Below, one piece after another: positions 6,004 to 34,559 of a DNA stretch of 64,000 bases. The translations under genes and the position numbers were made by a program. The notes under the pieces were generated by a model, which saw only the letters and a list, made by a program, of their open reading frames with translations, was not told the origin of the DNA and did not search any database. Source of the stretch: Candidatus Moraniibacteriota bacterium (GTDB lineage: Bacteria; Patescibacteriota; Minisyncoccia; Moranbacterales; UBA1568); NCBI GenBank assembly GCA_028711705.1, contig JAQTRS010000003.1:27818-91817 (forward strand). Reading direction: 5' to 3'. Every line of letters starts with the position of its first letter. The stretch's first letter is position 1.

Positions 6004-6013
6004 TAATCAAGTT

Positions 6014-6454
6014 ATGCCTCTGGATTTCTTTTCGAAAACACCTGTGTCAAACGCCCTGCCAGATGGGATGCGCCACATTATAGATGAGCTTAAACAGTCA
6101 GCCTCTCAAGAGGAGTGTTTGAAAAAGGCATACGTGATTCTCACGAAAAAATACCACGGCGAACGAATAAGGACATATAGAAACCTGTTCGATATTTTCA
6201 AACGAGACTTGGACACGCTTTGGAATAAGAGTGGCTTCCTTCATTGCACCAACATCAACTACCTTCTACGGACACTTCTTGTGCAAAGCGCATTTTTCAC
6301 TGAAGATGACATCCGCTTGAAATGGACGCTTGTCTGGTATGTCTCGCCGCATCAATACCTGCAAGTGCTGGTCGGGTCCGAATGGATCAATGTCGACATC
6401 TGGGCACATGCCTATGGTATCGGTTTCGGCGATAATGCATGCGGATTCCACTGA
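6014..6454 (+). CDS. hypothetical protein, possibly transglutaminase-like cysteine-peptidase fold (Cys-His-Asp candidates)
   Basis: ORF followed by a clean terminator. Candidate triad is GFLHCTN, YVSPHQ and NVDIW. The start was moved to the ATG at 6014, after the flippase stop. Confidence 0.4.
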   Translation: MPLDFFSKTPVSNALPDGMRHIIDELKQSASQEECLKKAYVILTKKYHGERIRTYRNLFDIFKRDLDTLWNKSGFLHCTNINYLLRTLLVQSAFFTEDDIRLKWTLVWYVSPHQYLQVLVGSEWINVDIWAHAYGIGFGDNACGFH

Positions 6455-6471
6455 GTCGCTTACACACTTTT

Positions 6472-6499
6472 GGCCGCAGACACACCCTGCGGCCTTTTT
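6472..6499 (+). terminator. rho-independent terminator (GGCCGCAG-loop-TGCGGCC, then TTTTT)
   Basis: Read directly. Confidence 0.65.
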
Positions 6500-6552
6500 G
6501 CATCCATCCTGAAATGCTATACTGAAGATATTATCCAACAGTCTGCTTTTTT

Positions 6553-7407
6553 ATGCATCAACCCAAAGTTTTCATTCTCATCCTCAATTACAACGGCAAA
6601 GCGACGCTCAAACAATGTCTCCAATCCATCTACCAGCTCAACTATCCCGATTTCGAGGTCGTGGTGATCGATAACGATTCCAAAGACGGATCACTCGAGA
6701 AAATCAAACATGCCTATTCTCGCGCACACTTCATCAAAAACGACGCCAATCTCGGCTTTGCGGCCGGCAATAATGTCGGTATCCGTTTTGCACTCGAGAA
6801 AGGCGCCGACTATGTCTGGCTCGTCAACAACGACGCGAAAGTCGAGAAAGACTCGCTTGCAAAACTCATCGATGCCGGCGAGCAGCGCCCCAAGGCAGGC
6901 ATCCTCAGTCCGCTCATCCTTCACACCGAAACGAAGAATATCTGGTTCGGCAAAGGCATCATCGATTGGGTATCCATGAAAACCCTTCACATCAGCCCGC
7001 CCACGCTCCTACAATCCTTCACTTCGGAATATATCTGCGGCTGCGCCATGCTCATCAAAAAAGACGTCTTCAAAAAAATCGGCCTCCTCAGCGAGAAGTA
7101 CTTCCTTTACTACGAGGATGCCGACTTCAGCGTCAAGGCATCACGCGCCGGCTTCGAACTCTGGACCATACCCACCGCCCATGTCCTTCACGCCGAGGCT
7201 TCCGAAAACAATCCCGAAAAAACCTATTGGCTGGTCATTTCCGGCTTACAATTCTTTCACGAAAACACCCCTTCCCACCTCAAGCCATGGGTCGCCCTCT
7301 ATTTCCAAGCCCGCCGCATCAAAAATTATTTCGACTGCGCTTCTGGGAAAAACCCCATCGCCAAAGAAGTAGCCCGCGCCTATCGGGATTATCTTGCGCA
7401 TGTATGA
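6553..7407 (+). CDS. family 2 glycosyltransferase
   Basis: Residues ILNYNGKATLKQCLQSI...VVVIDNDSKDGS...NLGFAAGNNVG...YYEDADFS match a GT2 (DXD and ED motifs). Confidence 0.85.
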   Translation: MHQPKVFILILNYNGKATLKQCLQSIYQLNYPDFEVVVIDNDSKDGSLEKIKHAYSRAHFIKNDANLGFAAGNNVGIRFALEKGADYVWLVNNDAKVEKDSLAKLIDAGEQRPKAGILSPLILHTETKNIWFGKGIIDWVSMKTLHISPPTLLQSFTSEYICGCAMLIKKDVFKKIGLLSEKYFLYYEDADFSVKASRAGFELWTIPTAHVLHAEASENNPEKTYWLVISGLQFFHENTPSHLKPWVALYFQARRIKNYFDCASGKNPIAKEVARAYRDYLAHV

Positions 7408-8195
7408 ATTCCCTCTTTTCCTTCATCGTCATCAATTTCAAGAGCGCTCACTTGCTTTCTGATTGGTTCGCATCGCTTTCCAAAACCGGACTTTCTTCCA
7501 ATGAATATGAAATCATCATCGTCAATAACGACTTGAGCGAAGCAGAAAAACTTGACACACTCAATCAACAACACCAATTCAAACTCATCCATGCAAAAAG
7601 CAATATCGGTTTCGGGGCGGCCTGCAACCTCGGGGCAACCGTCGCTACCGGTGAAATACTCGGATTCATCAATCCCGACACGGAATTCCTCAGCGGCGAC
7701 CTGCACCTACTCTATGATCGATTCCTCAACAACTCTTCATTGGGCATCATCGGCCTCAAACTTCTCACCCAGCAAGGCTTGGTTCAAGAGTGGAGTGTCG
7801 GAACACGGATCACTCTCTGGGACATCATCAACAACAACCTCGGATTCCCGAAAAGCAAGCTGCTTTGGGAGAGTCAAAAACCGATTGGGGTTGATTGGGT
7901 CAGCGGCGCCTCACTTTTCATACCAAAAACACTATTTCAAGAAGTCAACGGCTTCGACGAAGATTTTTTCCTCTACTTCGAAGATACCGATCTCTGTGAA
8001 CGCGTTCGATTGGAAGGAAAATCCATCCTCTATTTCCCGCCCATCTCCCTTCAACACCTCTGTGGTCACAGCGCCCCGTCACATAAGCAGCAAAAAGAAT
8101 ATTTTTACACTTCCCAAGACATCTACTTCGCCAAACACCGTCCGAAATGGGAAGGTTGGTGCGTAAAGATATTGAGAAGAATTTTTTTCCTCTAG
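7404..8195 (+). CDS. family 2 glycosyltransferase (second copy)
   Basis: Residues FSFIVINFKSAHLL...IIIVNND...NIGFGAACNLG...YFEDTDLC. Start is set at an ATG overlapping the upstream stop (ATGA). The long N-terminal extension in the track (6966..) is rejected. Confidence 0.8.
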   Translation: MNSLFSFIVINFKSAHLLSDWFASLSKTGLSSNEYEIIIVNNDLSEAEKLDTLNQQHQFKLIHAKSNIGFGAACNLGATVATGEILGFINPDTEFLSGDLHLLYDRFLNNSSLGIIGLKLLTQQGLVQEWSVGTRITLWDIINNNLGFPKSKLLWESQKPIGVDWVSGASLFIPKTLFQEVNGFDEDFFLYFEDTDLCERVRLEGKSILYFPPISLQHLCGHSAPSHKQQKEYFYTSQDIYFAKHRPKWEGWCVKILRRIFFL

Positions 8196-8198
8196 ATT

Positions 8199-9452
8199 AT
8201 GCTCACTATCATCTCCCTTCTTTACCTTCTTCTTCCCTTCCAGATAGCGCTCAGCCCGTCCGCGTCTTTCGATGTGGCCTCGGTGCGGATCATCATCCCG
8301 CTGATCGTGATAACGTGGCTTATCAAAAGCCTGATTACCAAAAAACTCTGGGTGTCTTCGCGCATCCAGACGCCGCTTCTGCTATCATTCCTTTTTTTAA
8401 GCACGCTTTCACTTATCAGTGCGCAGGAAATTTCCTGGGGACTGCGCAAGCTCCTGTTCCTCCTTTCTTTTTTCCCGCTCTACTTTGTCCTCACCGCCAT
8501 CCTCGATACGCACGAAAAGGTTAGGAGCTTAATGAAATATGTCGTTTTGGGGTCCTTCGCCCTCGCCATAACCGGCATCGTCCAATTCCTCCTCCAATTC
8601 CTCTTCCCGCTAGGCGTCCTCTTCCGTTTTTGGACGAGCCACCTACTCCCTTTGTTTCTCGGCGACGCTTTCGCGCAATCCGTCGCAAATTATCCGAGTA
8701 TATTCGTCGATATCGGCGGCCACACCCTGATGCGTGCAGTAGCGATATTTCCGGATCCGCATATGCTTTCTTTTTATCTCGGAATGACGGCGCCGCTCGC
8801 CATCGGACTCGCGCTTACGCATTCTCATAAAAAATACTTTTTCTTTTTCATTGCGGCCGCCCTTCTTGTGGCGGACCTTCTGACATTCTCCCGCGGTGGA
8901 TATCTTGGTATAATCGGTGGATTACTTTTCCTCTTCATCCTTCAGTTCCGTACGTGGGCGCCGCGCACCAAAAAAACCACACTCGCATTGCTTATCGCGA
9001 GCGCCTTTGTCATATTTTCCAGCCCGATTGGCACTCGACTGATCTCAAGCTTCAATACGAAAGAGGGCTCCAATCAGGGACGGATCGAAATGTGGCGGGC
9101 CGCGACCGATATCATCAAAGAGTATCCATTTTTCGGTGTGGGTACCGGCAATTACTCCCTCGCCGTAAAACCCAGCGCAAGCTATCGCGACCCGATTTAT
9201 GCTCACAACCTTTTCCTGGATATCGCGGCCGAAACTGGCATTGCCAATGCATTGATTTTCCTCTCACTCATTCTTGTATCCCTCTTTTCACTCTACAAAA
9301 ATAGCCTCACGCAAAGATTCTATCTTTGGCCAGCCCTTTCCATTATCATCTTTACCGTCCATTCCCTCGTCGAAACCCCGCTCTACTCCGTGCACATCCT
9401 CCCACTTTTTATCTTCCTCATCGCTCTTAATACCATAAAAAACACCGACTGA
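8199..9452 (+). CDS. O-antigen ligase-like (Wzy_C) polytopic membrane protein
   Basis: 417 aa, multi-TM. Carries the ligase signature YAHNLFLDIAAETGI. Confidence 0.7.
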   Translation: MLTIISLLYLLLPFQIALSPSASFDVASVRIIIPLIVITWLIKSLITKKLWVSSRIQTPLLLSFLFLSTLSLISAQEISWGLRKLLFLLSFFPLYFVLTAILDTHEKVRSLMKYVVLGSFALAITGIVQFLLQFLFPLGVLFRFWTSHLLPLFLGDAFAQSVANYPSIFVDIGGHTLMRAVAIFPDPHMLSFYLGMTAPLAIGLALTHSHKKYFFFFIAAALLVADLLTFSRGGYLGIIGGLLFLFILQFRTWAPRTKKTTLALLIASAFVIFSSPIGTRLISSFNTKEGSNQGRIEMWRAATDIIKEYPFFGVGTGNYSLAVKPSASYRDPIYAHNLFLDIAAETGIANALIFLSLILVSLFSLYKNSLTQRFYLWPALSIIIFTVHSLVETPLYSVHILPLFIFLIALNTIKNTD

Positions 9453-9457
9453 AACTC

Positions 9458-9545
9458 AAAAAAGAATGTGCTTCGGATCTTGGGGAGTGGCTGTTTGGCG
9501 TACTCGGCAAGGCCGCGGAACAAGATCTGAAGCACATTCTCCCTA
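9458..9545. terminator. long hairpin / probable bidirectional terminator (20-bp arms AGAATGTGCTTCGGATCTTG / CAAGATCTGAAGCACATTCT, one mismatch)
   Basis: Read directly. Preceded by an A-run. Confidence 0.5.
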
Positions 9546-9597
9546 CTACATAATCTGCCTACCTCTTAAAACAAAAAAATGTTATCCTGAAGGCGCT

Positions 9598-10863
9598 ATG
9601 AAGTCACAAAAAATCCTTCACTATCTCCTCCTTGCCACTATCCTGACGCTCCCTTTTTCCGGAGTCCGCTTTTTCATACTCGGAGTACCGATTTGTATGC
9701 CGGAATTGATGGTTATTTTCGCTTCTGCGATGTTTGTGTATATAAAATGGCATACTGACACCTTCAGAATGCAAAAGCTCCCACGATCGATTGTAGCGTC
9801 AATTACAATGATTGTTATCGGATTGTTTTCATCTTCGATTTTCAATGGCCTATCAACCGTTTCGCTCGGCATCATCAAAAGCTGGTTCTTCTTTCCCATA
9901 CTCTTCGCCTGGCTTCTTTTCCAATCATTCCACCTGCGATCGAGCGGCGCCAAAAACCTTCCTGAAAAAATGTCTCCACTTCCGCAATACACGCTGCTCA
10001 TCTGGTATATAACCCTCTCACTCACATCCATCGCGGCGCTTTCCTTTTTTTTCCAAAACGACTTGACTTATGACGGACGACTGAGGGCCTTTTATCTCTC
10101 TCCGAACTATCTCGCCCTCTTCCTTTTCCCGGGGGTTTTGCTCGGGTGGCATTTCCTCATAAAGTACTGGGTGCAAAGAAAGCCTTGGCTCTTTGCCATC
10201 GCTCTCGCTTCGTGGATGATGCTATGCGCCACGCTCTATCTCACGCTTTCCTATACCGTCATCACCGCATCGCTCCTGGGTTTTTTCATCGCTTTATTCC
10301 TTGCATCCAACCGATCTTATTTCTCACGCATCACTCTTATCGCGCTCTTCGTCAGCTCCATCTCCTTTTTCCTGCTCTTTCAGATGCACGGGCAAAAATT
10401 CTCCGATCTTATCCACTTCAATGAACGCTCCTCTTTGGTATCGCGCATGATGATCTGGCAGTCATCGATAAAAATGATCGCCGATCATCCCATTATCGGT
10501 ATCGGTCCGGGCAATTTCCAGACGACCTACCTCGACTACCAGTCATATTTCCCACCCTACCTTGAATGGGCTGTGCCGCATCCGCATAATCTCTACCTTG
10601 CCTTTTGGCTGCAAACAGGCATCATCGGACTAATCGGATTCATATGCCTCAACATTTTCTGGATACACCATATTAGCAGCTACGTGACTCACGGTACGAA
10701 AAAAGTGCCCTTCGCGTGGACGCTTCTTGGCATACTCATAGCGCTACTCTGTATCGGGCTGCTCGACACGCCATATTGGAAGAACGATCTTGCCTACACC
10801 TTCTGGCTACTGATCGCTCTTGGTCTCTACAAACCTTCTTTGGAAAAGGACATCAAAGCTTGA
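9598..10863 (+). CDS. O-antigen ligase-like (Wzy_C) polytopic membrane protein, second paralog
   Basis: Signature HPHNLYLAFWLQTGIIGL. Start is set at MKSQKILHYLL, downstream of the hairpin. The track ORF starts at 9466. Confidence 0.7.
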   Translation: MKSQKILHYLLLATILTLPFSGVRFFILGVPICMPELMVIFASAMFVYIKWHTDTFRMQKLPRSIVASITMIVIGLFSSSIFNGLSTVSLGIIKSWFFFPILFAWLLFQSFHLRSSGAKNLPEKMSPLPQYTLLIWYITLSLTSIAALSFFFQNDLTYDGRLRAFYLSPNYLALFLFPGVLLGWHFLIKYWVQRKPWLFAIALASWMMLCATLYLTLSYTVITASLLGFFIALFLASNRSYFSRITLIALFVSSISFFLLFQMHGQKFSDLIHFNERSSLVSRMMIWQSSIKMIADHPIIGIGPGNFQTTYLDYQSYFPPYLEWAVPHPHNLYLAFWLQTGIIGLIGFICLNIFWIHHISSYVTHGTKKVPFAWTLLGILIALLCIGLLDTPYWKNDLAYTFWLLIALGLYKPSLEKDIKA

Positions 10864-11989
10864 TGCTATAGAGTTTTCCGTCGGCACGATTCAAGAATAT
10901 GAGCAACGACTCATCATCATTCACCATCATCGATGCGGCATCGTAGCTTTTGGATATCTCTTTGGTTTCCACGATACGGCTCTTTTCGCCCGTTTCCATA
11001 TTCACCTTCCAAAACGTATCCTGTGTCAAAAGCGGCTTGGAAAAATAATCATTCGGCAAAATCGCATCATCCGGAAGCGATCCAGGCAAAGCATAGTACA
11101 CCGAGTCGCTATTTTTCGCCCAGACCGTTTTGGAAACCAGTGTCGGAATCTGGAGATTCTGATACTGGGCACCCTGATTGAGCAAAATGCCGAGCGTCGT
11201 CAGCATTCCGCCTTTCTGATCCGTCGAGCTCATCAAAAGTTTTTGCCCATCCGGGGAAAAAACATACTCCGCCCCGAACTTCCCGGAAAAAAGCGTCTTC
11301 ACATCACCACCAATAAGTGAAACGCTTCGCAAAGATGTTTCCTCGAAAGCATTGCCCTGATTCCAGAAGGCGAGCAACGAACCCTGCGGCATTACCATGG
11401 CATTCATATTCACAAACGGGCTATCCCCGATTTTTTTCCACTCGGAGCCGTTGGGATTCGCGATATTCAAAGAGCGCTCTTTGGTTTTGACATCATAATA
11501 TTTGTACACGATATGGTCCCCCAAATTCGTCCAGATCGGCGTCTCCATATTATCCTTGAGCGGCGTTTCGGTTTTCGCAACGGTATCCACCAAATACCAT
11601 TTGGCGCTATCGGCGATCTTCATTTCAACCAAAGCCTGCGTATGAAGCGGCGACCACACGGCGCGAAGCGGTTCCCCGGAAAGAGTCATGATCCGTGCTA
11701 CGGATTCCGTATCCAAAGAAATTTTCTTTATTTCCCTGCCTTGTACTGTGAAATACACAACCTGATTCCCTTCCAGATCATATGTCGGACTCATTATTTT
11801 TTCCTCGGTCAAAGCCTTGATATGAGCCTCTTCCTTTGGGACTTCAGGCGTCGTATTTTTCACCTCGATAGTTTTCGAATCGTTCACGAATGGGCTATTG
11901 ACATTATTTCGGAACGCGAAATTATACACCGCAAGCAAAAGCAATGCGATACCTAATACGACAGAAGAGATGAAAAACAATTTTTTCAT
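10853..11989 (-). CDS. membrane-anchored periplasmic/extracellular beta-propeller protein (PD40/TolB-like repeats)
   Basis: N-terminal TM is SSVVLGIALLLLAVY. Contains SPDG-type repeats (YVFSPDGQKLL). First gene (3' end) of the minus-strand T4SS-like run. Confidence 0.45.
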   Translation of the reverse strand: MKKLFFISSVVLGIALLLLAVYNFAFRNNVNSPFVNDSKTIEVKNTTPEVPKEEAHIKALTEEKIMSPTYDLEGNQVVYFTVQGREIKKISLDTESVARIMTLSGEPLRAVWSPLHTQALVEMKIADSAKWYLVDTVAKTETPLKDNMETPIWTNLGDHIVYKYYDVKTKERSLNIANPNGSEWKKIGDSPFVNMNAMVMPQGSLLAFWNQGNAFEETSLRSVSLIGGDVKTLFSGKFGAEYVFSPDGQKLLMSSTDQKGGMLTTLGILLNQGAQYQNLQIPTLVSKTVWAKNSDSVYYALPGSLPDDAILPNDYFSKPLLTQDTFWKVNMETGEKSRIVETKEISKSYDAASMMVNDDESLLIFLNRADGKLYSIKL

Positions 11990-12022: not shown

Positions 12023-12925
12023 TTAGAAACGGACATGAATATGGTCGGCCCCGACACAATCCGCCTTGTAATTCCCATTAACATCTTCGCAAAATGTTCC
12101 CGATCCGTTCGGATTATTAGGCAGGGCGCCCTTGAGGATAAACTGATCGCGAAGAGCAACGGAAGGAGGTGTGACATCAAAAGCATTGCCCGAATAATGC
12201 GCTGAGTTTGCAGCATGAGACCCTCCCGCGATACTGGTAATTTGGTAATTCCCATTCACGCTGCTGATGGCGGAAAGCATCGCTGCAGACGGTGTGACTT
12301 TTCCAGTGCAGGCAGCGCTCGTCGCATTGCAACCGCTGAAGCAAGCCGTCATAGACTGACCCTGCTTCGCTTCATTGATATTGGATTGGGGCGAAACGGC
12401 CGCACCGTTCGTATCCTTGCAATCCCCTCCATTGGCGAGTTTGCCATCAGCGATCTGGCTGGCAGCCTGTTGTGCTGAAGCAGACGGTACCGGAGCCGTG
12501 CCTCCGTTAACCGGCGTTGAGGATGTTCCGGTGCCGACACCGCTGAAATTAAGCGTGGTCAGATCCGGATTGATAGTGTTGACGATAAGCCATGCAGCCA
12601 ACCCGAGCGTCAACCCAATCAAGGCATCCTTGATGACGCCCTTCGCCGTGCTGGCCGATGAGGTATTTCCCGCACTCGTAAGGTACATGAATCCGCCGAC
12701 CGTCAGCATGAACATCGCCGAGATACCGATTATCCACAAAGCGAGCTGATAGACGGAACTCACATATTCAGGAAAGGTTTTATTGCCTTCGTATCCGGGA
12801 ATATTTTCCAATTGCTGGTACTGTGGCATCGATGCGGCATCGATAGCAAAAGCGTCTTGTCCTCCAAAAACGACTACCGCGATACCGATCGCAAACGCTA
12901 TCACATAAAGACGAGATGATTTCAT
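12023..12925 (-). CDS. membrane-anchored LAS/M15-type zinc peptidase (peptidoglycan DD/LD-peptidase-like) with a pilin-like N-terminal topology
   Basis: Signal peptide (AFA|ID). Two hydrophobic helices (LALWIIGISAMFMLTVGGFMYL and ALIGLTLGLAAWLIVN) as in TrbC/VirB2. The C-terminus has H-x6-D (SHAANSAHYSGNAFD) and HxH (ADHIHV) motifs. Confidence 0.5.
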   Translation of the reverse strand: MKSSRLYVIAFAIGIAVVVFGGQDAFAIDAASMPQYQQLENIPGYEGNKTFPEYVSSVYQLALWIIGISAMFMLTVGGFMYLTSAGNTSSASTAKGVIKDALIGLTLGLAAWLIVNTINPDLTTLNFSGVGTGTSSTPVNGGTAPVPSASAQQAASQIADGKLANGGDCKDTNGAAVSPQSNINEAKQGQSMTACFSGCNATSAACTGKVTPSAAMLSAISSVNGNYQITSIAGGSHAANSAHYSGNAFDVTPPSVALRDQFILKGALPNNPNGSGTFCEDVNGNYKADCVGADHIHVRF

Positions 12926-12954: not shown

Positions 12955-15585
12955 TTACTGCACTTTTTTCTCCGGAATGAAAGAGAAGGTGATTCCTAGC
13001 GCCAACAAAATAAGGCCCATAGTCACCACCAATCTGAAAAAGAAGATCACTGAAGCAGGCACATACGAGATGATGCTGGCGAAAAACTTCTTTGAACTAT
13101 CCAAAGGCCCCGAGGCGAGCTGCCCGGTGTTTTGAATCATTTCAACCTGAACACTGCGTGACAGCTTCACGTCGACCACATCGGCTATAGAAACGCCCCA
13201 GATATCGAATAGGGCTTTTTTATTCTTCGCAGGCGGCACATATACACCGCTTAAAGAAACGGAGTAGACCATCCCTGGCACAGCCGCCGTATCGGAGACC
13301 TGAATCAAACCGGAAGCATCCGCCATCACCGAGGAGCCGTTCACGGACCAAGCGACATTGGCGCCGCTCTTCAATGAATTAGGATAGAACAATCCTTTCA
13401 AAGCAAACGATCCCCCAGAGAAAGATTCAAACATATCTTTGCTATAATTATCCGTTGTGGCGCCATTCGCATCCACGTACTGTCCAAGGTATTTCGGCCA
13501 CACATTGCCGGTATCTGAGGAGATGATAAGCACGGAAGGATCAACGACACGAAAAACCCTATTCAAAGTCAACGACTTCCCCGACAAAGGATTGGTCGCT
13601 GTCATAGCAATCGTATATGATTCACCGACATCGCCCGTCACGGGAAAATAATTCACCGTGCCGAATTCGGGCTTATTCGGATCGCAGGCATTTGAATTAG
13701 AGACGCTCAAGGAACATTTGAACGGCTTATTGTTGATCAGCCACGAAATATCGGATCCGCTATTCGCCGGGAAACCGAGCACATCAGCATCGAAATCCAG
13801 TCCAATAATCTGTCCTTTTACGACAGGACAGACGGCGCGATCCTCAACAGTATCTTCACACAGCAATCCCGTATCAGACGCCGACGCCGACGCGAATTTC
13901 AACTTCCAGTTCGCATCGACATCGACTGAGTGCGTCTGTATCTGAGCCTGCGACTGCACTATCTTCACCACCACAGAACTTCGCCCCACGCGCTTCTGAT
14001 TCGAATCGTAATTCTCTGTCGCCGTCACATTGATACGGAAATAACCTATAGCGTCCTCAAAGTACCGATCAAAAAAATCCTGACCATTGGCCTTGGTCCC
14101 CTCTTTGACATTTAAATTTATCTTCAACGAAGGCAAATCGCTTCCGGAAACGCTCGAGATGGCATGCGCGTCAATGAGTCCTTTGGTGATATCTTCCCAG
14201 GCCGTATCGTCCGTCTGCGACTTGCTGCTATTGGCATACACCTTCCATTCATAGGATATATTAGAGTCCTTAGTGGCTGAATTGATCAATACCGCATGCG
14301 TGGTCAAAAGATCGCCACGATTGTCAGGATTGTTCTGTGAAAAGGAATCTATGACCGGATTTTCGGGAGTAGCCGTCAACTGGATCTCGAACTTACCGGC
14401 TTGATTGCCGTTCGTTGGATCAACCAAGTTGTCCGCGATACAATCATTCAAATCTTGATCGGCTGTGGGAATCTGTGCGGTTCCCCCGTTATAGGGCGCA
14501 CCAGACATATACCTCCCTGTCGGCCGCGGCGTGCACTGATTCTTCGCGAAAGCCCATGTCACCTGCATGGATGAATCCTGATACTTCGTCGCATTCATCG
14601 ACAAACCCTCAATCACGACACCTACTTGATCCTTGGAAGCATAATTCCATGTGAATTTATCCTGACCCAAACCGACAACGTTGGCCTCATCCTTATTGCC
14701 ATTTTGTGCCGTGCTTGGATCCTTGGGATCCGTGTGCCAAAATTCCTCTTCACTATTTCCGAAAGCACCATCTCCTGTGGTATGACCGGGCGCATCAGGA
14801 AAAAGATGCTCGCAGCCGCTGCCGATCCAATCGCCATTCGTGTTGTAGTGTTCCAATTCGTAGTCCACGCCAGTCTCGAAATCATGGATATAGCAGTATC
14901 CGCTCGTACTCCTGTCACCACCGAATTGAGCCCTGTACTCGTCATTATCACCGCCGGGCTGGCCATAATTCACCTGATCGCCAGCAAAGCCGCCATTCGT
15001 AACCCGGCGCATAGCCTCTATCTTCCAGTCCTCGATGGTAATCTTATTGTTATTATCAAGATCGCATAATTTCTTTTCCAAAGCACTCAGGTTGCTTGTT
15101 TTCAGATCACACTCTTTGCGCTTGAGGTACCATGTGAAATACAGATTCTCCTTCTGGCTTGAGAAATATAGAGGGAAAGCCTGAGCGGTTATCTCCTGGC
15201 CGTTTTTTGGATCGGTAGGATTAAAAAAAAGATTCATCTGCGGCGCCATTTCCTTGTTTGGGGAGATGTTCATACCTTCACCAAGATTCTGTATAGAAAG
15301 CGGATTAAGGTGATAGCGCTTTTCGATGTCGTCTATGATGCTATTGGCCGAACCGGATCCGAATGTTCCTGCGCCGAACGCATCGGCTCCGAATGATCCG
15401 GGATTGAATGATCCGGAACTGCCAGAAAGACTCCCGATATCGAACAAGTCTGCATTGGCAGGTGTCGGACTCACGAAGGCGAAAATGATCTGGAAGAAAA
15501 TGATACTTACAGTTATTGTTTTGTAAAGATATTTTGTTTTTGTGGCCATGGCGTGTTTCATACAAATAGATGTTTTATACGACAC
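12955..15585 (-). CDS. large secreted/surface protein with C-terminal TM anchor (876 aa), function unknown
   Basis: N-terminal signal/TM. Gly/Ser/Phe-rich segment SGSFNPGSFGADAFGAGTFGSG. C-terminal hydrophobic anchor. No recognisable catalytic motif. Confidence 0.6.
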   Translation of the reverse strand: MSYKTSICMKHAMATKTKYLYKTITVSIIFFQIIFAFVSPTPANADLFDIGSLSGSSGSFNPGSFGADAFGAGTFGSGSANSIIDDIEKRYHLNPLSIQNLGEGMNISPNKEMAPQMNLFFNPTDPKNGQEITAQAFPLYFSSQKENLYFTWYLKRKECDLKTSNLSALEKKLCDLDNNNKITIEDWKIEAMRRVTNGGFAGDQVNYGQPGGDNDEYRAQFGGDRSTSGYCYIHDFETGVDYELEHYNTNGDWIGSGCEHLFPDAPGHTTGDGAFGNSEEEFWHTDPKDPSTAQNGNKDEANVVGLGQDKFTWNYASKDQVGVVIEGLSMNATKYQDSSMQVTWAFAKNQCTPRPTGRYMSGAPYNGGTAQIPTADQDLNDCIADNLVDPTNGNQAGKFEIQLTATPENPVIDSFSQNNPDNRGDLLTTHAVLINSATKDSNISYEWKVYANSSKSQTDDTAWEDITKGLIDAHAISSVSGSDLPSLKINLNVKEGTKANGQDFFDRYFEDAIGYFRINVTATENYDSNQKRVGRSSVVVKIVQSQAQIQTHSVDVDANWKLKFASASASDTGLLCEDTVEDRAVCPVVKGQIIGLDFDADVLGFPANSGSDISWLINNKPFKCSLSVSNSNACDPNKPEFGTVNYFPVTGDVGESYTIAMTATNPLSGKSLTLNRVFRVVDPSVLIISSDTGNVWPKYLGQYVDANGATTDNYSKDMFESFSGGSFALKGLFYPNSLKSGANVAWSVNGSSVMADASGLIQVSDTAAVPGMVYSVSLSGVYVPPAKNKKALFDIWGVSIADVVDVKLSRSVQVEMIQNTGQLASGPLDSSKKFFASIISYVPASVIFFFRLVVTMGLILLALGITFSFIPEKKVQ

Positions 15586-15612
15586 TCGTATTTTTTGGTC
15601 AGGTGCGTGTGT

Positions 15613-16257
15613 TTATTTTACAAAAAGAACCGCGCTTGCTATCCCAAGTATAGCAGAGATATATGAAAATAAAAACGAGTATACTATTGAGCGTGATTGC
15701 GCGACGAGAAATCCCGAAAAAACAGCCATGGCAATCGCGATAAGAAATAATATATCCACTTTTCCGTGCGAACCTGCCACTAAAAACAACATGAAGAGCA
15801 GTGTCTGCATCGCTATCGCCTTCATCCCCCCGAATTTTTCCCACACGAAGAATACGAAACCTCGGAAGAAGAATTCGAAAATAAAGATATATACCCCGGT
15901 CACGAATAGGTAGAGGAGGAACATAAGGAAGCTCACGCGTATCGACAATGGCACCGCGAATCGGGCAAGGATATCCGTATAGTGGATCACCGCGGCCAGG
16001 CCTGCGACAATTCCCGAAAGCAGCACGATCATCCACAAGCTGCCTCGCAGCATCTTACCCAAAGAAAAACCGTATTCAGAAAGATCTCCTTTAAGGAGAA
16101 ACTTGACAAAGAATATCGGGAGAATGACCAGAAACACGCTGTCAGAAATGAGTGATTGAATAGCATTCTCGGTCGGGAAAAACGCCGCGGCCAACAAGCT
16201 AGCTACGATAATCGCATTACTCATCCAAAATTGCTTATTGTGTATCGACAGAGTCAT
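15613..16257 (-). CDS. polytopic membrane protein, possibly a CPBP/Abi-family intramembrane protease
   Basis: 214 aa, ~6 TM. Has an ExxxR-like motif (FEFFFRG) and candidate His residues. The motif match is weak. Confidence 0.35.
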   Translation of the reverse strand: MTLSIHNKQFWMSNAIIVASLLAAAFFPTENAIQSLISDSVFLVILPIFFVKFLLKGDLSEYGFSLGKMLRGSLWMIVLLSGIVAGLAAVIHYTDILARFAVPLSIRVSFLMFLLYLFVTGVYIFIFEFFFRGFVFFVWEKFGGMKAIAMQTLLFMLFLVAGSHGKVDILFLIAIAMAVFSGFLVAQSRSIVYSFLFSYISAILGIASAVLFVK

Positions 16258-16694: not shown

Positions 16695-18512
16695 TTAGCT
16701 GTTTTCATTCTCTTGATCAAAATCACGCTTCGCCTGTTCGATTTCCAAGAGCTGCCGCGGATCCGAAGTGATGATCTGATCCTCGCTATAGGACGCGATA
16801 ATTTTGATCGCCACATGCTTGGTGCCTGCAAAAAAGATCCCTTCCCCGACATTGCTTTCCAAAAGCAGGAACTTTTCATGATCGGTAAGATAGAAGGTTT
16901 CCGCGATCAGCTCGATAGACGCCGGGGATTGGCGTAGCAAAAGCTGCAGCGATGAGTTGGTCAGGATGGGTTTCCCATAGCGCGAGTGCATGAAATCACC
17001 AATATCCTGCGTAATCGTCGTCAGTCCCGTATAGTATTTGCGGCAGCGCTTGGCGATGCCATAGAGAAACGAAGCCGCATCCTCATGCTGCATCATCACC
17101 CACGCCTCATCCACGACGACGATGCGTTTCTTGAGCTCTGAGCGCATCTCATTCCAGATGAACTGCAGGATGATGTACATGGCGATAGGACGAAGCTCCT
17201 CCTCCAAATCACGGATATTGAAGACCACCAGCTGTTCCCGCAAGGACACATTCGTATGGCTGCTCAAAAAGCCCGCGAAGATGCCTTCGGTATACTTCTC
17301 AAGACGGGCTGCCAAAGACTCGGCGCCTTCCATATTCTTCAATACCTCATACAGGTCCACCATAGTAGGGAAGGCGTTGGATGGTATGTCTTTGAAGCGT
17401 CCCGTCGGTGTTATATCGCGGATAGCATAGGTTTCCCGTAAGGCGCGATCCAAAATCGAGTCTTCTTCCGGTGTCAGGTTGCCAAGCATCAGGTGGATCA
17501 AACCGATAAGGCCGGCAATAGTGTTTCGGAGCACCGCCGTCAGATCCTCGTCCTCGCCAACGCGCGGCAAATCGAACGGATTGAGGTGAAAACTCGTGCT
17601 CAGGTTGATGTCGATAAACGATCCGCCGACCATCTCGCACAAGTGACGGTACTCGTTTTCCGGATCGATAATGATCACGCCCGTGCCGAGCATCATCGAA
17701 CGCAGCACCTCAAGCTTCACGGTATAACTTTTTCCGGCACCGGATTTTGCGAACACCACCATATTGGCATTTTCCAATTTGAACCTATCGAATAGGATAA
17801 GACTATTATTGTGGCGATTGATACCATACAAGATGCCCTCATTTGAGGAAAGATCAGCGGAAACGAAGGGGAAGGTAGTGGAAAGCGGTGCGGTATTGAG
17901 ATTGTTGGCGATATCCAACACATCGGTCACGAGCGGACGGGTCGAAACGAATCCCTGCTCCATGCGCAGCACGGCCGGCTTGATATAGACCAGCTGCGAT
18001 TCCAGGATCGCCTCCACAGCCTGACTCATCCGATTGAGCTCATCTAGAGTTTGCGCGTACAATGTGATATATAGGCCAAAGCGGAAGAATTTTTCCGTCC
18101 CCTGCTGCAATTTATCCCGCAATTCTTCGATATCAGTAAGCGCTGTTTCAAGTATCGGATCACGCACTTTTCCACCTTCCTCCTCGATATGGATCTGCGA
18201 CTGCACCTGGGTCACGGATTTTCGCAGGTTTTTCAATATTTCCCGGGTATCGATCGGATGGATCATCATGGCAATATCCAAGGGAAAGTCCAGGTTAACG
18301 ATAGGCGAGAACCAATTCGTATTCAAATAGCGGGGATAGGCGACCACGAAATGCGTGCGTGCTATCGTTTCCCCCACCTGCATATAATTGGAACTGAGCT
18401 TGATCGCCGACGGAGCGATAAGGTCACGTATCGTCGCGATGCCTTTTTGATACAGTTCCTCACTTGCCAAAAATTCATCGGTAGTTATTTTATTTTTTGA
18501 AAAAAATGCCAT
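16695..18512 (-). CDS. VirB4/TrbE/CagE-family type IV secretion ATPase (ATPase domain)
   Basis: Walker A is FAKSGAGKSY. Walker B is IVVVDEAW. ~600 aa with the usual conjugative-ATPase layout. Confidence 0.85.
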   Translation of the reverse strand: MAFFSKNKITTDEFLASEELYQKGIATIRDLIAPSAIKLSSNYMQVGETIARTHFVVAYPRYLNTNWFSPIVNLDFPLDIAMMIHPIDTREILKNLRKSVTQVQSQIHIEEEGGKVRDPILETALTDIEELRDKLQQGTEKFFRFGLYITLYAQTLDELNRMSQAVEAILESQLVYIKPAVLRMEQGFVSTRPLVTDVLDIANNLNTAPLSTTFPFVSADLSSNEGILYGINRHNNSLILFDRFKLENANMVVFAKSGAGKSYTVKLEVLRSMMLGTGVIIIDPENEYRHLCEMVGGSFIDINLSTSFHLNPFDLPRVGEDEDLTAVLRNTIAGLIGLIHLMLGNLTPEEDSILDRALRETYAIRDITPTGRFKDIPSNAFPTMVDLYEVLKNMEGAESLAARLEKYTEGIFAGFLSSHTNVSLREQLVVFNIRDLEEELRPIAMYIILQFIWNEMRSELKKRIVVVDEAWVMMQHEDAASFLYGIAKRCRKYYTGLTTITQDIGDFMHSRYGKPILTNSSLQLLLRQSPASIELIAETFYLTDHEKFLLLESNVGEGIFFAGTKHVAIKIIASYSEDQIITSDPRQLLEIEQAKRDFDQENENS

Positions 18513-18548
18513 ACTGTGATTCTCTTGTTATATATTCACACCCCCATA

Positions 18549-19235
18549 CTATACCAGCGAACTCAGCTCGATATCCTTGATATTATTGGTCAATGTCGTG
18601 GAGAATAACGATGGGTTATAGGTATTGTAGAGCAATTCGATAGTCTCTTCCGTGTTCAGTGCCGCAACTTTCACGCCGGTCCCGGAAAGCCCCATGGTCA
18701 CGTGATCCACGCGTTGCCAGAGTTGGTTCTTATAGGTTTCAAAGAGTTCTCGCTGTTCATGTATGGCTTGTTTGGGATTAAGGATATTGCCTATCTTCTC
18801 AAAAAAGCCGCTATGTTCATCCTCGATAGCTGCGAAAGGCACGATAACATAGAAATACTTCGACATGATGTCGGATACTTCCGTAAGATTCTTGATAAAA
18901 TGTTGATACTCGGATATCTGAAGCCGCAAAAGCTCATTCATCTGCTCTTCCTCCTTTTCCTTGAGGAGCTGCAAATAGGGCTCTATATTGAATCTGCGAG
19001 AATGGATAAGCACCTGCACCGGAAAATCCAATGAATTGAGAAAAGCTTGGTACTGAGAAATGATAGCATCCTGCTCTTCGGTCGATTTCAGATCGAAATT
19101 CAGAGAGGATACTAAAAGAATAGCGCGCAAACCCCCGTTTCGCAGGACGACCACACCATCGCGAACCTCCTTCACATCGACGTATTGTTGTGTGCTCGCA
19201 TTCGATGATTTTTTGTTTTTCTGGGAACTCTCCAT
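18549..19235 (-). CDS. hypothetical protein, candidate detached N-terminal domain of VirB4
   Basis: 228 aa with no TM. Lies immediately upstream of the ATPase ORF, which at 605 aa is short for a VirB4. The segment VVLRNGGLRAILLVSSLNFDLKSTEEQDAIISQYQAFLNSL resembles a VirB4 N-terminal region. Confidence 0.4.
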   Translation of the reverse strand: MESSQKNKKSSNASTQQYVDVKEVRDGVVVLRNGGLRAILLVSSLNFDLKSTEEQDAIISQYQAFLNSLDFPVQVLIHSRRFNIEPYLQLLKEKEEEQMNELLRLQISEYQHFIKNLTEVSDIMSKYFYVIVPFAAIEDEHSGFFEKIGNILNPKQAIHEQRELFETYKNQLWQRVDHVTMGLSGTGVKVAALNTEETIELLYNTYNPSLFSTTLTNNIKDIELSSLV

Positions 19236-19250: not shown

Positions 19251-19649
19251 TTATTTTTGATTGTCGACTATTTTCGCCAGACGACTCACTTCATCCGCTG
19301 TCACCACTTTCTGCACGCTCACTATATGTGCCTCAGGCGTTTCCTTCACCTTCTTCGCGGATATGACTTTTGTAGGACGGTCCCATACATACACCTTCGG
19401 ACGCACTATGAACAGTATAGCATTGCCGATAAAGACGATGAGGGGCTGATTATACGGCCGATAGAAAGCGAGCGCCACAAAAATGCACACTACCGGCACG
19501 GCCGCTATAAAAAAAGCGAGCGGGTCATAGATATTCCAGAGTATCATGAGTACAGCAACCATGCCGATCATCCAAAGCAGCTGTTTCACGGTCAAAGGAC
19601 CTGCCACCTTATCTTCGACATCGATATATTGTGGGACATTGAATAGCAT
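19251..19649 (-). CDS. PrgI/VirB3-like small membrane protein
   Basis: 132 aa with two TM helices. Its position upstream of VirB4 matches Gram-positive conjugation loci. Confidence 0.45.
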   Translation of the reverse strand: MLFNVPQYIDVEDKVAGPLTVKQLLWMIGMVAVLMILWNIYDPLAFFIAAVPVVCIFVALAFYRPYNQPLIVFIGNAILFIVRPKVYVWDRPTKVISAKKVKETPEAHIVSVQKVVTADEVSRLAKIVDNQK

Positions 19650-23245: not shown

Positions 23246-23450
23246 TTTTTGCAGCACAGACGCTCTGCTAATGACTAAGATTTCATCACAATCGGAGTAT
23301 ACCACACAATGCAACGGGGTGCAAAAAAGGAATGACCTACTCGATCATCCCTTTTCTTGGGTCTTACGGTAAACTTCGTCGCAAGCTTATTTTTATGCCT
23401 TCTTGAGTATCATATCCTCCCTTGCTAAAATATTTCCTTAAGCCTTCTTT

Positions 23451-24641: not shown

Positions 24642-24856
24642 GCCTGTGCGTAGAAGATTATTACTAATATGATCGATCCTTCAGTTAAGTTTACACCGTA
24701 GAGAACCAACACCCTCGTGTTTAAGCGGTGTCTCATTGGAGCAAACCCTAATTTTTATGTATTCCCATAGTACTAGACCCTCGGAATTTTGTCAATGTAA
24801 AATGACACAAAATTGCCATTTTTTGGCTTGTATAAAGCATATGGTACAATACGGGT

Positions 24857-33200: not shown

Positions 33201-33261
33201 AATGAAGAGCTCATGGGATTATTTTTCCATTATACACGGGTGCGATAAAATTTTTCTAAAA

Positions 33262-33666: not shown

Positions 33667-33669
33667 GCA

Positions 33670-34523: not shown

Positions 34524-34559
34524 AAATATATACGTATAAATTATTTTTTTCTTTATGGT

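What the first reader, a model, noticed from the sequence alone, without database searches (positions are those of the whole stretch)
12023..12925. Pilin-like two-TM membrane module fused to a LAS/M15 zinc peptidase
After a signal peptide the protein has two closely spaced hydrophobic helices, the topology of TrbC/VirB2 conjugative pilins, then a Ser/Thr/Gly-rich linker. The C-terminal domain carries both LAS metallopeptidase signatures, H-x6-D (SHAANSAHYSGNAFD) and HxH (ADHIHV). A wall-cleaving peptidase tethered by a pilin-like anchor inside a T4SS-like operon, in addition to the CHAP hydrolase, is not a standard component. It could be a second wall-remodelling enzyme. It could also be an anti-neighbour effector, given the possible CPBP/Abi immunity-like membrane protein two genes away at 15613..16257.
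Basis: partly seen in the sequence, partly recalled or inferred. Interest (0 to 1): 0.55.

Follow-up and report, generated by a model that had tools for sequence, protein, structure and literature searches.

The report
Secretion-system pilin carrying swappable wall-cutting enzyme
This gene from an ultrasmall (Patescibacteria/CPR) bacterium fuses a conjugation-type pilin to a zinc peptidase domain whose closest solved relatives are animal Hedgehog signalling domains, and related genomes swap this enzyme head like a cassette, which points to a tool for getting through another cell's wall.

Summary
ORF 12023..12925 (-) encodes a signal peptide, a two-helix T4SS_pilin module (Pfam PF18895, above threshold), a Ser/Thr/Gly/Pro-rich linker and a Cys-rich C-terminal domain with H-x6-D and HxH.

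H243, D250 and H295 are invariant in 139 homologues. The family profile matches only Hedgehog N-domains among solved structures (E about 1e-6). The AlphaFold model (pLDDT 96.6) has Hedgehog-N, then M15 peptidases, as nearest folds, though weakly.

The fusion is not a one-off. At least 143 clusters (50% identity) exist, and 111 of 139 aligned sequences carry the pilin domain.

New findings:
- A TolB-like beta-propeller gene follows the pilin gene in 48 loci.
- The pair sits at the end of the Patescibacterial T4SS cluster in at least 11 loci, and next to ribonucleotide reductase genes in the two others annotated.
- The head is an exchangeable cassette. Four mutually distant LAS-type heads, or SLT/lysozyme-like heads, occupy the same slot. 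DNA identity collapses exactly over the head, and synonymous sites there are saturated.

The CPBP gene goes with the T4SS cluster, not with the head, so the immunity idea is not supported.

Best reading: a modular VirB2-like pilin presenting a peptidoglycan peptidase, probably against a partner cell's wall. This is a new variant of a known kind.

The parts
12023..12925 (-). Whole gene: modular T4SS pilin with a LAS-peptidase head (300 aa plus stop)
   Evidence: ORF list; exact protein found once elsewhere, in a Logan assembly, labelled only T4SS_pilin
12845..12925 (-). Signal peptide, residues 1-27, predicted cleavage after AFA
   Evidence: Hydropathy and A-x-A motif; most homologues have an N-terminal hydrophobic segment plus two more
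12572..12778 (-). VirB2-like pilin module (Pfam T4SS_pilin, residues 50-118), two TM helices at about 58-82 and 97-119 with a short Lys-containing loop
   Evidence: PF18895 E=5.7e-9, above cut-off; NCBIfam Mbov_0395 pilin-like E=0.0035; AF2 helical hairpin, pLDDT 82; the Lys-containing loop suggests an N-out/C-out topology (inference)
12431..12568 (-). Low-complexity Ser/Thr/Gly/Pro-rich linker, residues 120-165
   Evidence: Sequence; poorly aligned between homologues
12026..12430 (-). Head: Cys-rich LAS (Hedgehog/DD-peptidase-type) zinc-peptidase domain, residues 166-300
   Evidence: 143 representative homologues; profile vs PDB hits Hedgehog N-domains at E about 1e-6 and 7e-5; AF2 pLDDT 96.6, pTM 0.90; Foldseek top hits are Hedgehog-N, then M15
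12176..12217 (-). Core motif H237-x5-H243-Y-x-G-x-A-x-D250 (proposed Zn ligands H243 and D250; H237 accessory)
   Evidence: H243 and D250 in 139/139, H237 in 138/139; aligns with Shh GHHSEESLHYEGRAVD; Zn ligands of Shh are H141, D148 and H183 (PMC6027127)
12086..12088 (-). E280, candidate general base
   Evidence: Acidic in 132/139 (E 92, D 40); aligned with the Glu of YYESKAHIH in Shh, which is E177, described as catalytic in PMC6027127
12035..12043 (-). HxH motif H295-I-H297 at the extreme C-terminus
   Evidence: H295 in 139/139, H297 in 135/139; nearly all family members end in HxH
12026..12525 (-). Hypervariable or exchangeable cassette (linker plus head)
   Evidence: Window vs L006 DNA identity is 37-42% here against 51-80% in the flanks, with sharp edges. 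The same pattern holds for L003 vs L010 (49-70% vs 87-100%), where pS is 0.82 in the head vs 0.17-0.28 in the flanks
10853..11989 (-). Conserved partner gene: membrane-anchored TolB-like beta-propeller (378 aa), starting 33 nt after the pilin stop
   Evidence: NCBIfam TolB propeller E=1.8e-9; one N-terminal TM; immediately downstream of a pilin ORF in 49 ORF pairs, of which 48 loci passed the stricter filter; 50% mean identity whatever the head type
12955..15585 (-). 876-aa secreted protein with a C-terminal TM anchor, between the T4SS core and the pilin
   Evidence: No family hit; TM at both ends; homologues in 15 loci, and directly upstream of the pilin-TolB pair in about 10 loci besides the window
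15613..16257 (-). Polytopic CPBP/Rce1-like membrane protein (weak call)
   Evidence: NCBIfam MrtA E=1.5e-4; L083 orthologue Rce1-like 'weak'; travels with the T4SS cluster and the 876-aa gene, not with head type
16695..19235 (-). Split VirB4 ATPase: TrsD/TraC-like N part (18549..19235) and P-loop part (16695..18512)
   Evidence: Pfam P-loop_TraG E=4.6e-28; NCBIfam TrsD and VirB4
19251..19649 (-). PrgI/VirB3-like protein
   Evidence: Pfam PrgI E=1.6e-8
21155..23314 (-). 719-aa polytopic protein, candidate VirB6/PrgH analogue (inference)
   Evidence: 7 hydrophobic segments; conserved in the T4SS-linked loci; no family hit
23451..24641 (-). LysM + CHAP wall hydrolase, the conventional VirB1-like component, at the head of the cluster
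   Evidence: Pfam LysM E=2.2e-21, CHAP E=3.6e-19; promoter-like site at 24795..24767

Best explanation
The gene encodes a modular VirB2-like pilin of the Patescibacterial (Gram-positive-type) type IV secretion system.

Proposed path of the protein:
1. The signal peptide is removed and the two-helix pilin module sits in the membrane with both ends outside (inferred).
2. A flexible linker of about 45 residues carries a disulfide-stabilised, zinc-dependent LAS domain of the Hedgehog/DD-peptidase type. The proposed ligands are H243, D250 and H297, with H295, H237 and E280 as catalytic helpers (inferred from alignment to Shh).
3. Whether it stays at the base of the machine or is polymerised into, or at the tip of, a pilus, the head is presented outside the cell. 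There it cuts peptide bonds in peptidoglycan to open a path through a cell wall (inferred).

Three observations suggest the preferred target is the wall of the partner or host cell at the contact site: the head is replaced by recombination between genomes while the pilin module and the downstream TolB-like gene stay conserved; alternative heads are other LAS types or lytic-transglycosylase/lysozyme-like domains; and the operon already has a LysM-CHAP hydrolase. Head type would then track the wall chemistry or defences of that target. This last step is the least certain.

The TolB-like membrane-anchored propeller is a constant partner of unknown role.
For: Architecture (shown).

Family and invariant triad (shown).

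LAS relationship (shown):
- The profile hits only Hedgehog N-domains in the PDB, at E about 1e-6 and 7e-5.
- The AF2 model has pLDDT 96.6.
- Its 28 best Foldseek hits are all Hedgehog-N, followed by VldE, phage L-Ala-D-Glu peptidase, VanXYc, DD-peptidase 1lbu, LdcB and LysECD7. M15A-type viral peptidases appear in BFVD.

Peptidoglycan as substrate (supported by domain company):
- Relatives combine pilin + SLT + head (P0087), head + SLT (P0131), pilin + head + SLT_3 + M15_4 (P0137), and PG_binding_1/3 + head (P0135).
- Pilins in the same slot carry SLT or SLT_3 heads instead (L037, L046).

Pilin identity (shown or supported):
- 111/139 relatives have T4SS_pilin and 9 have TrbC.
- P0038 is followed by two small pilins, and L045 has three modular pilins in a row.
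- The target is the only pilin-HMM hit in the 64-kb window.
- Synteny of T4SS cluster, 876-aa gene, pilin and TolB-like gene holds in at least 11 loci.

Cassette behaviour (shown):
- There are four head types unlinked by BLAST but related by hhalign at 81-94% probability.
- Within-type vs between-type identity is 47/27% for the head, 63/61% for the pilin module and 50/49% for the TolB-like protein. The nearest TolB-like neighbour has a different head type in 24/42 cases.
- Identity breakpoints are sharp, and synonymous sites are saturated only in the head.

Background: VirB2-like pilins are widespread and often arrayed in Patescibacteria, the T4SS is essential for epibiotic growth, and its role is unknown (PMC12102498; PMC10633639; PMC11665869).
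Against: - No enzymatic, localisation or polymerisation data exist.
- No Pfam or NCBIfam peptidase model reaches threshold.
- Hedgehog-N itself has never been shown convincingly to be a protease, so the closest solved relatives are not proven enzymes.
- The pilin module could not be tied to solved conjugative pilins by structure or profile.
- A 15-kDa head on every subunit may be sterically incompatible with a VirB2-type filament.
- In the two loci whose upstream genes were annotated (L008, L085), the pair lies next to ribonucleotide reductase rather than T4SS genes. Most of the other fusion-bearing loci also lack T4SS homologues within their flanks, so a T4SS role is not proven for all.
- Target choice (host wall vs own wall) is inferred only from the variability pattern. 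That pattern could also reflect phage or immune pressure on any exposed domain.
Confidence: 0.55

Rival explanations
1. It is an own-wall remodelling enzyme. The pilin-like hairpin is only a membrane anchor that docks the peptidase beside the T4SS (or another envelope machine), where it clips the producer's own peptidoglycan so the apparatus or pilus can pass. This would be a second VirB1-like helper.
For: T4SSs commonly carry dedicated wall hydrolases, and monoderm ones are multi-domain (PMC12102498). The protein is tethered to its own membrane with a linker of only about 45 residues. The pair is conserved next to envelope polysaccharide genes (Wzy_C, GT2) in the window, L083 and L085. The partner is TolB-like, and TolB is an envelope-maintenance protein family.
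Against: Housekeeping action on a conserved own wall does not predict cassette replacement with four LAS types plus SLT-type heads between close relatives, nor saturated synonymous divergence confined to the head. The operon already encodes LysM-CHAP.
Confidence: 0.25
2. It is a polymorphic antibacterial toxin: a conserved delivery module with variable wall-degrading toxin domains used against competitors, with self-protection by an immunity protein.
For: A conserved N-terminal module, a variable C-terminal enzymatic domain and sharp recombination edges are the hallmark layout of polymorphic toxins. In some loci an extra 222-265-aa ORF of unknown family lies between the pilin-head gene and the TolB-like gene.
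Against: In the window and most loci the next gene starts within tens of nucleotides and is the TolB-like gene. It does not co-vary with the head: 97.6% vs 58% identity for L003/L010, and the same mean identity within and between head types. CPBP homologues occur only in T4SS-linked loci, accompany several head types and are absent from the ribonucleotide-reductase-linked loci. No silent or orphan head copies lie nearby.
Confidence: 0.1
3. It is a non-catalytic display domain. The head keeps the LAS fold but acts as an adhesin or ligand-binding module (for example binding wall peptides or a host surface protein), as Hedgehog-N acts as a ligand. It varies because it is an exposed antigen or phage receptor.
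For: The closest solved relatives are Hedgehog signalling domains, whose protease activity is disputed (PMC6027127). Modular pilins of type IV pili mostly carry binding modules (PMC8179133). Hypervariability fits an exposed receptor or antigen.
Against: The metal triad, plus H237, H295 and the acidic residue at 280, is near-invariant across 139 divergent sequences. The H...D and HxH elements align across the four head types. The head is interchangeable or combined with SLT/lysozyme-like catalytic domains.
Confidence: 0.1

Closest known systems
Hedgehog N-terminal signalling domain and 'bacterial Hedgehog' Hh/DD-peptidases (Roelink 2018, PMC6027127)
   Same: It shares the extended motif G-x-H-x5-H-Y-x-G-x-A-x-D, an acidic residue aligned with Shh E177, and HxH. 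These are the only solved structures hit by the family profile (E about 1e-6) and the top Foldseek neighbours. Bacterial versions are also C-terminal domains behind TM segments.
   Different: Identity over the Foldseek alignment is only about 19-20%, whereas bacHh proteins share more than 50% with ShhN. Pfam HH_signal is not matched by this protein and only weakly by 6/139 relatives. This family has an extra Cys-rich N-terminal subdomain and a Cys-bracketed insertion between the acidic residue and HxH. Ca-binding residues were not assessed. The N-terminal partner is a T4SS pilin.
MEROPS M15 / LAS peptidoglycan peptidases (VanX/VanY, Streptomyces DD-carboxypeptidase 1lbu, LdcB, phage L-Ala-D-Glu endolysins, M15A)
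   Same: H-x6-D plus HxH zinc signature; same fold class among Foldseek hits; inferred substrate class (wall peptides).
   Different: No M15 Pfam model matches this protein. The PDB profile hit to an M15 endolysin is E=1.5. Foldseek probabilities for M15 chains are at most 0.13.
VirB2/TrbC conjugative pilins and the VirB2-like pilin arrays of Patescibacteria (PF18895; Quinonero-Coronel 2025, PMC12102498; Wang 2023, PMC10633639)
   Same: Signal peptide plus two-helix hairpin; PF18895 above threshold; located at the end of a VirB3/VirB4/VirB6-like cluster; relatives sit in pilin arrays.
   Different: Classical VirB2 pilins are about 70-120 aa with no extra domain. Here a 135-aa enzyme head plus linker is grafted on the C-terminus. 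The papers read describe pilin arrays, and none of the passages retrieved mentions a pilin-enzyme fusion.
Modular type IV pilins (S. sanguinis PilB/PilC; Raynaud 2021, PMC8179133)
   Same: Same design logic: a small pilin 'carrier' module with a functional 'effector' module grafted through a linker, probably tip-exposed, and with many alternative modules.
   Different: A different, unrelated filament system (type IV pili vs T4SS VirB2-like). Known grafted modules are mostly binding domains. Here the modules are wall hydrolases and are exchanged at one locus.
VirB1-type T4SS wall hydrolases (PrgK, TcpG, TrsG; SLT/CHAP/M23)
   Same: A wall-degrading enzyme encoded within a T4SS cluster.
   Different: Different catalytic fold for this protein. 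It is fused to the pilin rather than soluble or singly anchored, it is hypervariable, and a conventional LysM-CHAP enzyme is present as well.
Polymorphic toxin systems (CdiA-CT, Rhs, LXG)
   Same: Conserved N-terminal module, exchangeable C-terminal enzymatic domain, sharp recombination boundary.
   Different: There is no co-varying immunity gene. The downstream gene is conserved independently of head type.

Membership tests
LAS / Hedgehog-DD-peptidase superfamily (MEROPS clan MD) | H-x6-D and H-x-H zinc-binding motifs, conserved in homologues | tested here: met
   H243-x6-D250 and H295-x-H297; H243, D250 and H295 in 139/139, H297 in 135/139
LAS / Hedgehog-DD-peptidase superfamily (MEROPS clan MD) | Significant sequence-profile similarity to an established member | tested here: met
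   Family profile vs PDB: Sonic, Indian and Desert Hedgehog N-domains at E=1.1e-6 (A1) and 7e-5 (A2). No unrelated family scored better than E=1
LAS / Hedgehog-DD-peptidase superfamily (MEROPS clan MD) | DD-peptidase fold (central antiparallel sheet with helices, metal site in a cleft) | tested here: inconclusive
LAS / Hedgehog-DD-peptidase superfamily (MEROPS clan MD) | Zinc binding and peptidase activity | not testable with these tools
   Needs biochemistry
Pfam Peptidase_M15 families (PF08291 M15_3, PF13539 M15_4, VanY) | Match to the family model at or above the gathering score | tested here: not met
   No hit for this protein even at E<=1. Only 3 (M15_3) and 2 (M15_4) of 139 relatives give weak hits, and the one shown, in P0137, lies in a separate second domain
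Hedgehog N-terminal signalling domain (PF01085) / bacHh sensu Roelink | Match to HH_signal at gathering score; more than 50% identity to ShhN over about 145 aa; conserved Ca-binding residues | tested here: not met
   No HH_signal hit for this protein. 6/139 relatives hit weakly (best E=0.0011). Identity over the Foldseek alignment is about 19%. Ca sites were not examined
VirB2/TrbC-type T4SS pilin (PF18895 T4SS_pilin) | Match to the family model above the gathering score | tested here: met
   E=5.7e-9, 36.4 bits vs 26.6; 111/139 relatives also match, and 9 match TrbC
VirB2/TrbC-type T4SS pilin (PF18895 T4SS_pilin) | Cleavable signal peptide followed by a two-helix hydrophobic hairpin | tested here: met
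   hydropathy; AF2: helices 24-56 and 61-91 of the module, pLDDT 82
VirB2/TrbC-type T4SS pilin (PF18895 T4SS_pilin) | Genomic association with VirB4/VirB3/VirB6-type genes | tested here: met
   Window cluster; the same synteny in at least 11 loci. Not universal: the two loci whose upstream genes were annotated have ribonucleotide reductase there instead
VirB2/TrbC-type T4SS pilin (PF18895 T4SS_pilin) | Structural similarity to solved conjugative pilins | tested here: inconclusive
   Foldseek returns generic helical hairpins. An archaeal conjugation pilin (8dfu) appears only at rank 49, E=3.4. The profile vs PDB finds nothing relevant
VirB2/TrbC-type T4SS pilin (PF18895 T4SS_pilin) | Polymerisation into an extracellular filament | not testable with these tools
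   Needs imaging or biochemistry
Polymorphic toxin-immunity systems | Variable C-terminal toxin domain on a conserved N-terminal module | tested here: met
Polymorphic toxin-immunity systems | Cognate immunity gene immediately downstream that co-varies with the toxin domain | tested here: not met
   The downstream gene is the TolB-like gene, conserved irrespective of head type (50/49% within/between types; 97.6% identical where heads are 58% identical). CPBP is linked to the T4SS cluster, not to the head

The most novel reading that the evidence does not exclude
Patescibacterial T4SS pili (or pilin-based stubs) are 'lytic pili'. A VirB2-like carrier presents interchangeable peptidoglycan-cutting heads (several LAS peptidase types, or lytic-transglycosylase/lysozyme types). 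These heads breach the host bacterium's wall at the epibiont-host contact. They are shuffled between lineages by recombination, so head type helps set host range, much as phage tail lysins and receptor-binding proteins do. A side issue is that this abundant CPR family is among the nearest bacterial sequence relatives of the Hedgehog N-domain's metal site, which adds a large prokaryotic branch to the Hh/DD-peptidase story.
Probability: 0.3. Interest if true: 0.8.

Novelty: new variant of a known kind. Interest (0 to 1): 0.66.

Why it matters
The role of the T4SS in Patescibacteria is described as completely unknown, although it is essential for epibiotic growth in the one species tested (PMC11665869; PMC10633639).

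A pilin that carries a wall-cutting enzyme, with heads exchanged between genomes, gives a concrete and testable idea of how these ultrasmall cells get through a partner's wall and what might limit their host range.

It extends the 'modular pilin' principle from type IV pili to VirB2-type pilins. It defines a large protein family with no Pfam or NCBIfam model. It also adds a sizeable bacterial branch close to the Hedgehog N-domain's zinc site.

The practical outputs are a defined domain (residues about 166-300) for biochemistry and a sharply bounded recombination cassette for population-genomic study.

Tried and rejected
- **Direct searches for the C-terminal domain** all found nothing: Pfam at E<=1, NCBIfam, PHROGs, single-sequence PDB phmmer and the word-indexed protein search. 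The profile version of that search returned only 5 hits. The exhaustive phmmer search was needed.
- **The search for related loci** failed with the broad alignments A1 and A2 because they were not conserved enough. It worked with 10 close sequences, but the pattern fell in the pilin module, so the loci are biased to Moranbacteria.
- **Tying the pilin module to solved pilins** was uninformative, both by structure and by profile.
- **CPBP as cognate immunity** was rejected.
- **The TolB-like gene as cognate immunity** was rejected because it does not co-vary with the head.
- **Silent head cassettes nearby** (pilE/pilS-type variation): none were found in the window or flanks.
- **In-situ positive selection as the sole cause of head divergence** was rejected because synonymous sites are saturated only in the head.
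- **Promoter and terminator scans** were no better than shuffles.
- **A replication origin next to the cluster** was not supported. There is a GC-skew turn near 34 kb, but none of the ten ORFs scanned between 24.8 and 42.4 kb is dnaA.
- **An AF2 test of a head/TolB-like complex** was considered and not run. The tool returns no interface information, and head swapping argues against a head-specific interface.
Full report
**1. What is at the coordinates**

The minus-strand ORF 12023..12925 encodes 300 residues. A hydropathy and motif scan shows:
- a signal peptide (1-27, AFA|ID);
- two hydrophobic helices (about 58-82 and 97-119) joined by a short Lys-containing loop;
- a Ser/Thr/Gly/Pro-rich linker (120 to about 165);
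- a C-terminal domain with six cysteines, S-A-H-Y-S-G-N-A-F-D (241-250, so H243-x6-D250) and H295-I-H297 three residues from the end.

Pfam places residues 50-118 in T4SS_pilin (PF18895, E=5.7e-9, above the curated cut-off). NCBIfam gives a weak match to the mycoplasma ICE pilin-like family.

Nothing in Pfam, NCBIfam, PHROGs or a single-sequence PDB search recognises the C-terminal domain.

**2. The C-terminal domain is a real, conserved family of the LAS kind**

The word-indexed search found nothing. An exhaustive phmmer search of 1.8 billion cluster representatives found 143 relatives (50 at E<=1e-10). Nearly all are 280-430 aa with the domain at the extreme C-terminus.

In an alignment of 139 sequences, H243, D250 and H295 are invariant. 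H237 is present in 138, H297 in 135, Y244 in 135, G246 in 136, an acidic residue at 280 in 132, and five of the six cysteines in at least 127.

A profile of the family matches only Hedgehog N-terminal domains among 177,635 distinct PDB sequences, at E=1.1e-6 with the full-length alignment and 7e-5 with the domain alone. The family's G-s-H-s-x-n-S-a-H-Y-s-G-k-A-v-D aligns on Shh GHHSEESLHYEGRAVD, and its f-C-E on YYE (E177). The best M15 enzyme scores E=1.5.

According to Roelink (PMC6027127), H141, D148 and H183 bind zinc in Shh and E177 is the presumed general base. The equivalents here are H243, D250, H297 and E280.

An AlphaFold2 model of residues 160-300, built on 65 homologues, is very confident (pLDDT 96.6, pTM 0.90). 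Its 28 best Foldseek hits in the PDB are all Hedgehog N-domains (probability up to 0.94). Next come VldE, a phage L-Ala-D-Glu peptidase, VanXYc, the Streptomyces DD-peptidase, LdcB and LysECD7.

It is not a member of any Pfam M15 family or of HH_signal at their thresholds. The label 'LAS / Hedgehog-DD-peptidase-type domain, unmodelled family' is more accurate than 'M15'.

**3. The fusion is the rule, not an oddity**

Of the 139 aligned sequences (the window protein plus 138 relatives), 111 carry T4SS_pilin and 9 carry TrbC. Most show the pattern of a signal peptide plus two TM segments.

Public annotation, where there is any, is 'hypothetical protein'.

Domain company points to peptidoglycan as the substrate:
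- P0087 is pilin + SLT + head;
- P0131 is head + SLT;
- P0137 is pilin + head + SLT_3 + an M15_4-like segment;
- P0135 is PG_binding_1/3 + head.

P0038 is followed by two small pilins.

**4. Organism and neighbourhood**

Relatives recovered from species-representative genomes are almost all Candidatus Moranbacteria/Moraniibacteriota (Patescibacteria). Some TPA MAGs carry an implausible 'Bdellovibrionales' label. The window's GyrA is 75% identical to that of a Moraniibacteriota MAG.

In the window the gene is the second-last of a co-directional run:
- LysM-CHAP hydrolase;
- a 7-TM protein;
- a 432-aa protein;
- PrgI/VirB3;
- TrsD-like plus P-loop VirB4;
- a 140-aa membrane protein;
- a weakly CPBP-like protein;
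- an 876-aa anchored protein;
- the pilin-peptidase;
- a TolB-like membrane-anchored propeller.

This matches the monoderm-type T4SS described for Patescibacteria (PMC12102498). The target is the only pilin-HMM hit in the 64-kb window.

**5. What is conserved around it**

A pilin gene with a C-terminal tail of more than 100 residues is immediately followed by the TolB-like gene in 48 loci.

The whole arrangement of T4SS cluster, 876-aa gene, pilin and TolB-like gene recurs in at least 11 loci (L083). In the two other loci whose upstream genes were annotated (L008, L085), the pilin-TolB pair lies after the ribonucleotide reductase genes. In the window, L083 and L085 it faces the same Wzy_C/GT2 envelope-polysaccharide genes.

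CPBP homologues appear only in the T4SS-linked loci. They accompany several kinds of head: LAS types 1 and 2, and pilins with SLT-like or unclassified C-terminal domains.

**6. The head is an exchangeable cassette (new)**

The C-terminal domains at this slot fall into four groups that BLAST does not connect: 18, 13, 10 and 5 loci, with the window in type 1. Profile-profile comparison relates them (94.5%, 81% and 90% probability), with the H...D and HxH elements aligned.

Other genomes have SLT or SLT_3 lysozyme-like heads on the pilin at the same T4SS-linked slot (L037, L046). L045 has three modular pilins in tandem.

Mean pairwise identity within vs between head types:

| Module | Within type | Between types |
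|---|---|---|
| Head | 47% | 27% |
| Pilin module | 63% | 61% |
| TolB-like protein | 50% | 49% |

The nearest TolB-like relative carries a different head type in 24 of 42 cases. For the window that relative is L006 (type 2), with TolB-like 70%, pilin 82% and head 26% identity.

At the DNA level, L003 and L010 are 87-100% identical through the flanking genes and the pilin module. Identity is 49-70% exactly over the linker and head, then 99% again at the TolB-like start. Window vs L006 shows the same picture, with edges at about 12525 and 12026.

In L003/L010 the proportion of synonymous differences is 0.82 (saturated) in the head, against 0.28 in the pilin module and 0.17 in the TolB-like gene. 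The head therefore has a different, older history. This indicates allelic replacement by recombination rather than only fast evolution in place. No silent copies lie nearby.

**7. Mechanism**

*Shown:* the architecture, conservation of the metal triad, kinship with LAS domains, association with wall-hydrolase and wall-binding domains, linkage to the T4SS and to the TolB-like gene, and cassette behaviour.

*Inferred:*
- an N-out/C-out topology, from the Lys-containing loop, the six conserved Cys in the head and analogy to VirB2;
- zinc-dependent cleavage of wall peptides;
- presentation on or near a T4SS pilus.

*Least certain:* that the preferred target is a partner or host wall. I favour it because a conserved own wall does not explain head replacement, the operon already has a LysM-CHAP enzyme, and Patescibacteria live attached to hosts with an essential T4SS of unknown role.

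Rivals are own-wall remodelling (0.25), a polymorphic toxin with an unseen immunity gene (0.10) and a non-catalytic exposed binding domain (0.10).

**8. Comparison with known systems**

It works like a modular pilin. That concept is established for type IV pili, where a carrier module presents an effector module, probably at the tip (PMC8179133). Here it is on an unrelated VirB2-type carrier and with wall hydrolases as modules.

It resembles VirB1-type hydrolases in context and polymorphic toxins in evolutionary pattern, but fails the immunity-gene criterion.

None of the T4SS or Patescibacteria papers I could search describes a pilin-peptidase fusion in the passages retrieved. The consecutive Pfam accessions for T4SS_pilin (PF18895) and SLT_3 (PF18896) suggest, as an inference only, that curators may have seen pilin-lysozyme proteins.

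**9. Verdict**

This is a new variant of a known kind: a modular VirB2-like pilin with a recombining LAS-peptidase head and a constant TolB-like partner. Interest is moderate to high because it gives a testable handle on what the Patescibacterial T4SS does.

Noticed in passing
window 10853..11989 (-): A membrane-anchored TolB-like beta-propeller gene follows the modular pilin in 48 loci and stays conserved while the head is swapped. Its role is unknown. Hedgehog-N is bound at its zinc site by the beta-propeller protein Hhip, an analogy I could not test.
   Followed up: partly
window 12955..16257 (-): A weakly CPBP/Rce1-like polytopic protein (15613..16257) always precedes an approximately 876-aa secreted protein with a C-terminal hydrophobic anchor (12955..15585) in the T4SS-linked loci. 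This could be a protease-substrate (sorting-signal) pair rather than an immunity protein.
   Followed up: partly
L024 10782-11576, L046 10701-11366, L039 11243-11980, L045 12658-13392: In some genomes an extra 222-265-aa ORF with no family match sits between the pilin-head gene and the TolB-like gene. It is a candidate accessory or inhibitor protein for those head types.
   Followed up: no
L045 9728-14784: Three pilin-module proteins (372, 589 and 463 aa) lie in a row, each with a different C-terminal extension. Only the last is a recognised LAS type 2 head.
   Followed up: no
window 16695..19235 (-): VirB4 is split into a TrsD/TraC-like 228-aa ORF and a 605-aa P-loop ORF. The same split is seen in every related T4SS locus examined.
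   Followed up: partly
window 24857..25783 (+): A tyrosine recombinase (Phage_integrase family) is encoded divergently, right next to the start of the T4SS cluster. It could be XerC/D or a hint that the cluster is or was mobile. The T4SS cluster is absent from this position in the two relatives whose upstream genes were annotated (L008, L085), which have ribonucleotide reductase genes there.
   Followed up: no
window 4555..10863 (+): Two Wzy_C (O-antigen-ligase-like) genes and two GT2 glycosyltransferase genes converge on the pilin-TolB pair. The same arrangement is conserved in L001, L083 and L085, which links the pair to envelope polysaccharide genes.
   Followed up: partly
window ~33000..36000: Cumulative GC skew reaches its minimum near 34 kb, gene orientation flips there and GC drops to 0.38, as at a replication origin or terminus. 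None of the ten ORFs scanned between 24.8 and 42.4 kb is dnaA.
   Followed up: partly
window 30651..31622 (-): This is an RpfB-like protein (DUF348 + G5 + DPBB lytic-transglycosylase domain), so another wall-active enzyme lies in the neighbourhood.
   Followed up: no
L003-L018 and other TPA MAG loci: Many MAG records titled 'uncultured Bdellovibrionales bacterium' carry genes up to 97% identical to each other and syntenic with Moranbacteria loci. The taxonomic labels look wrong.
   Followed up: no
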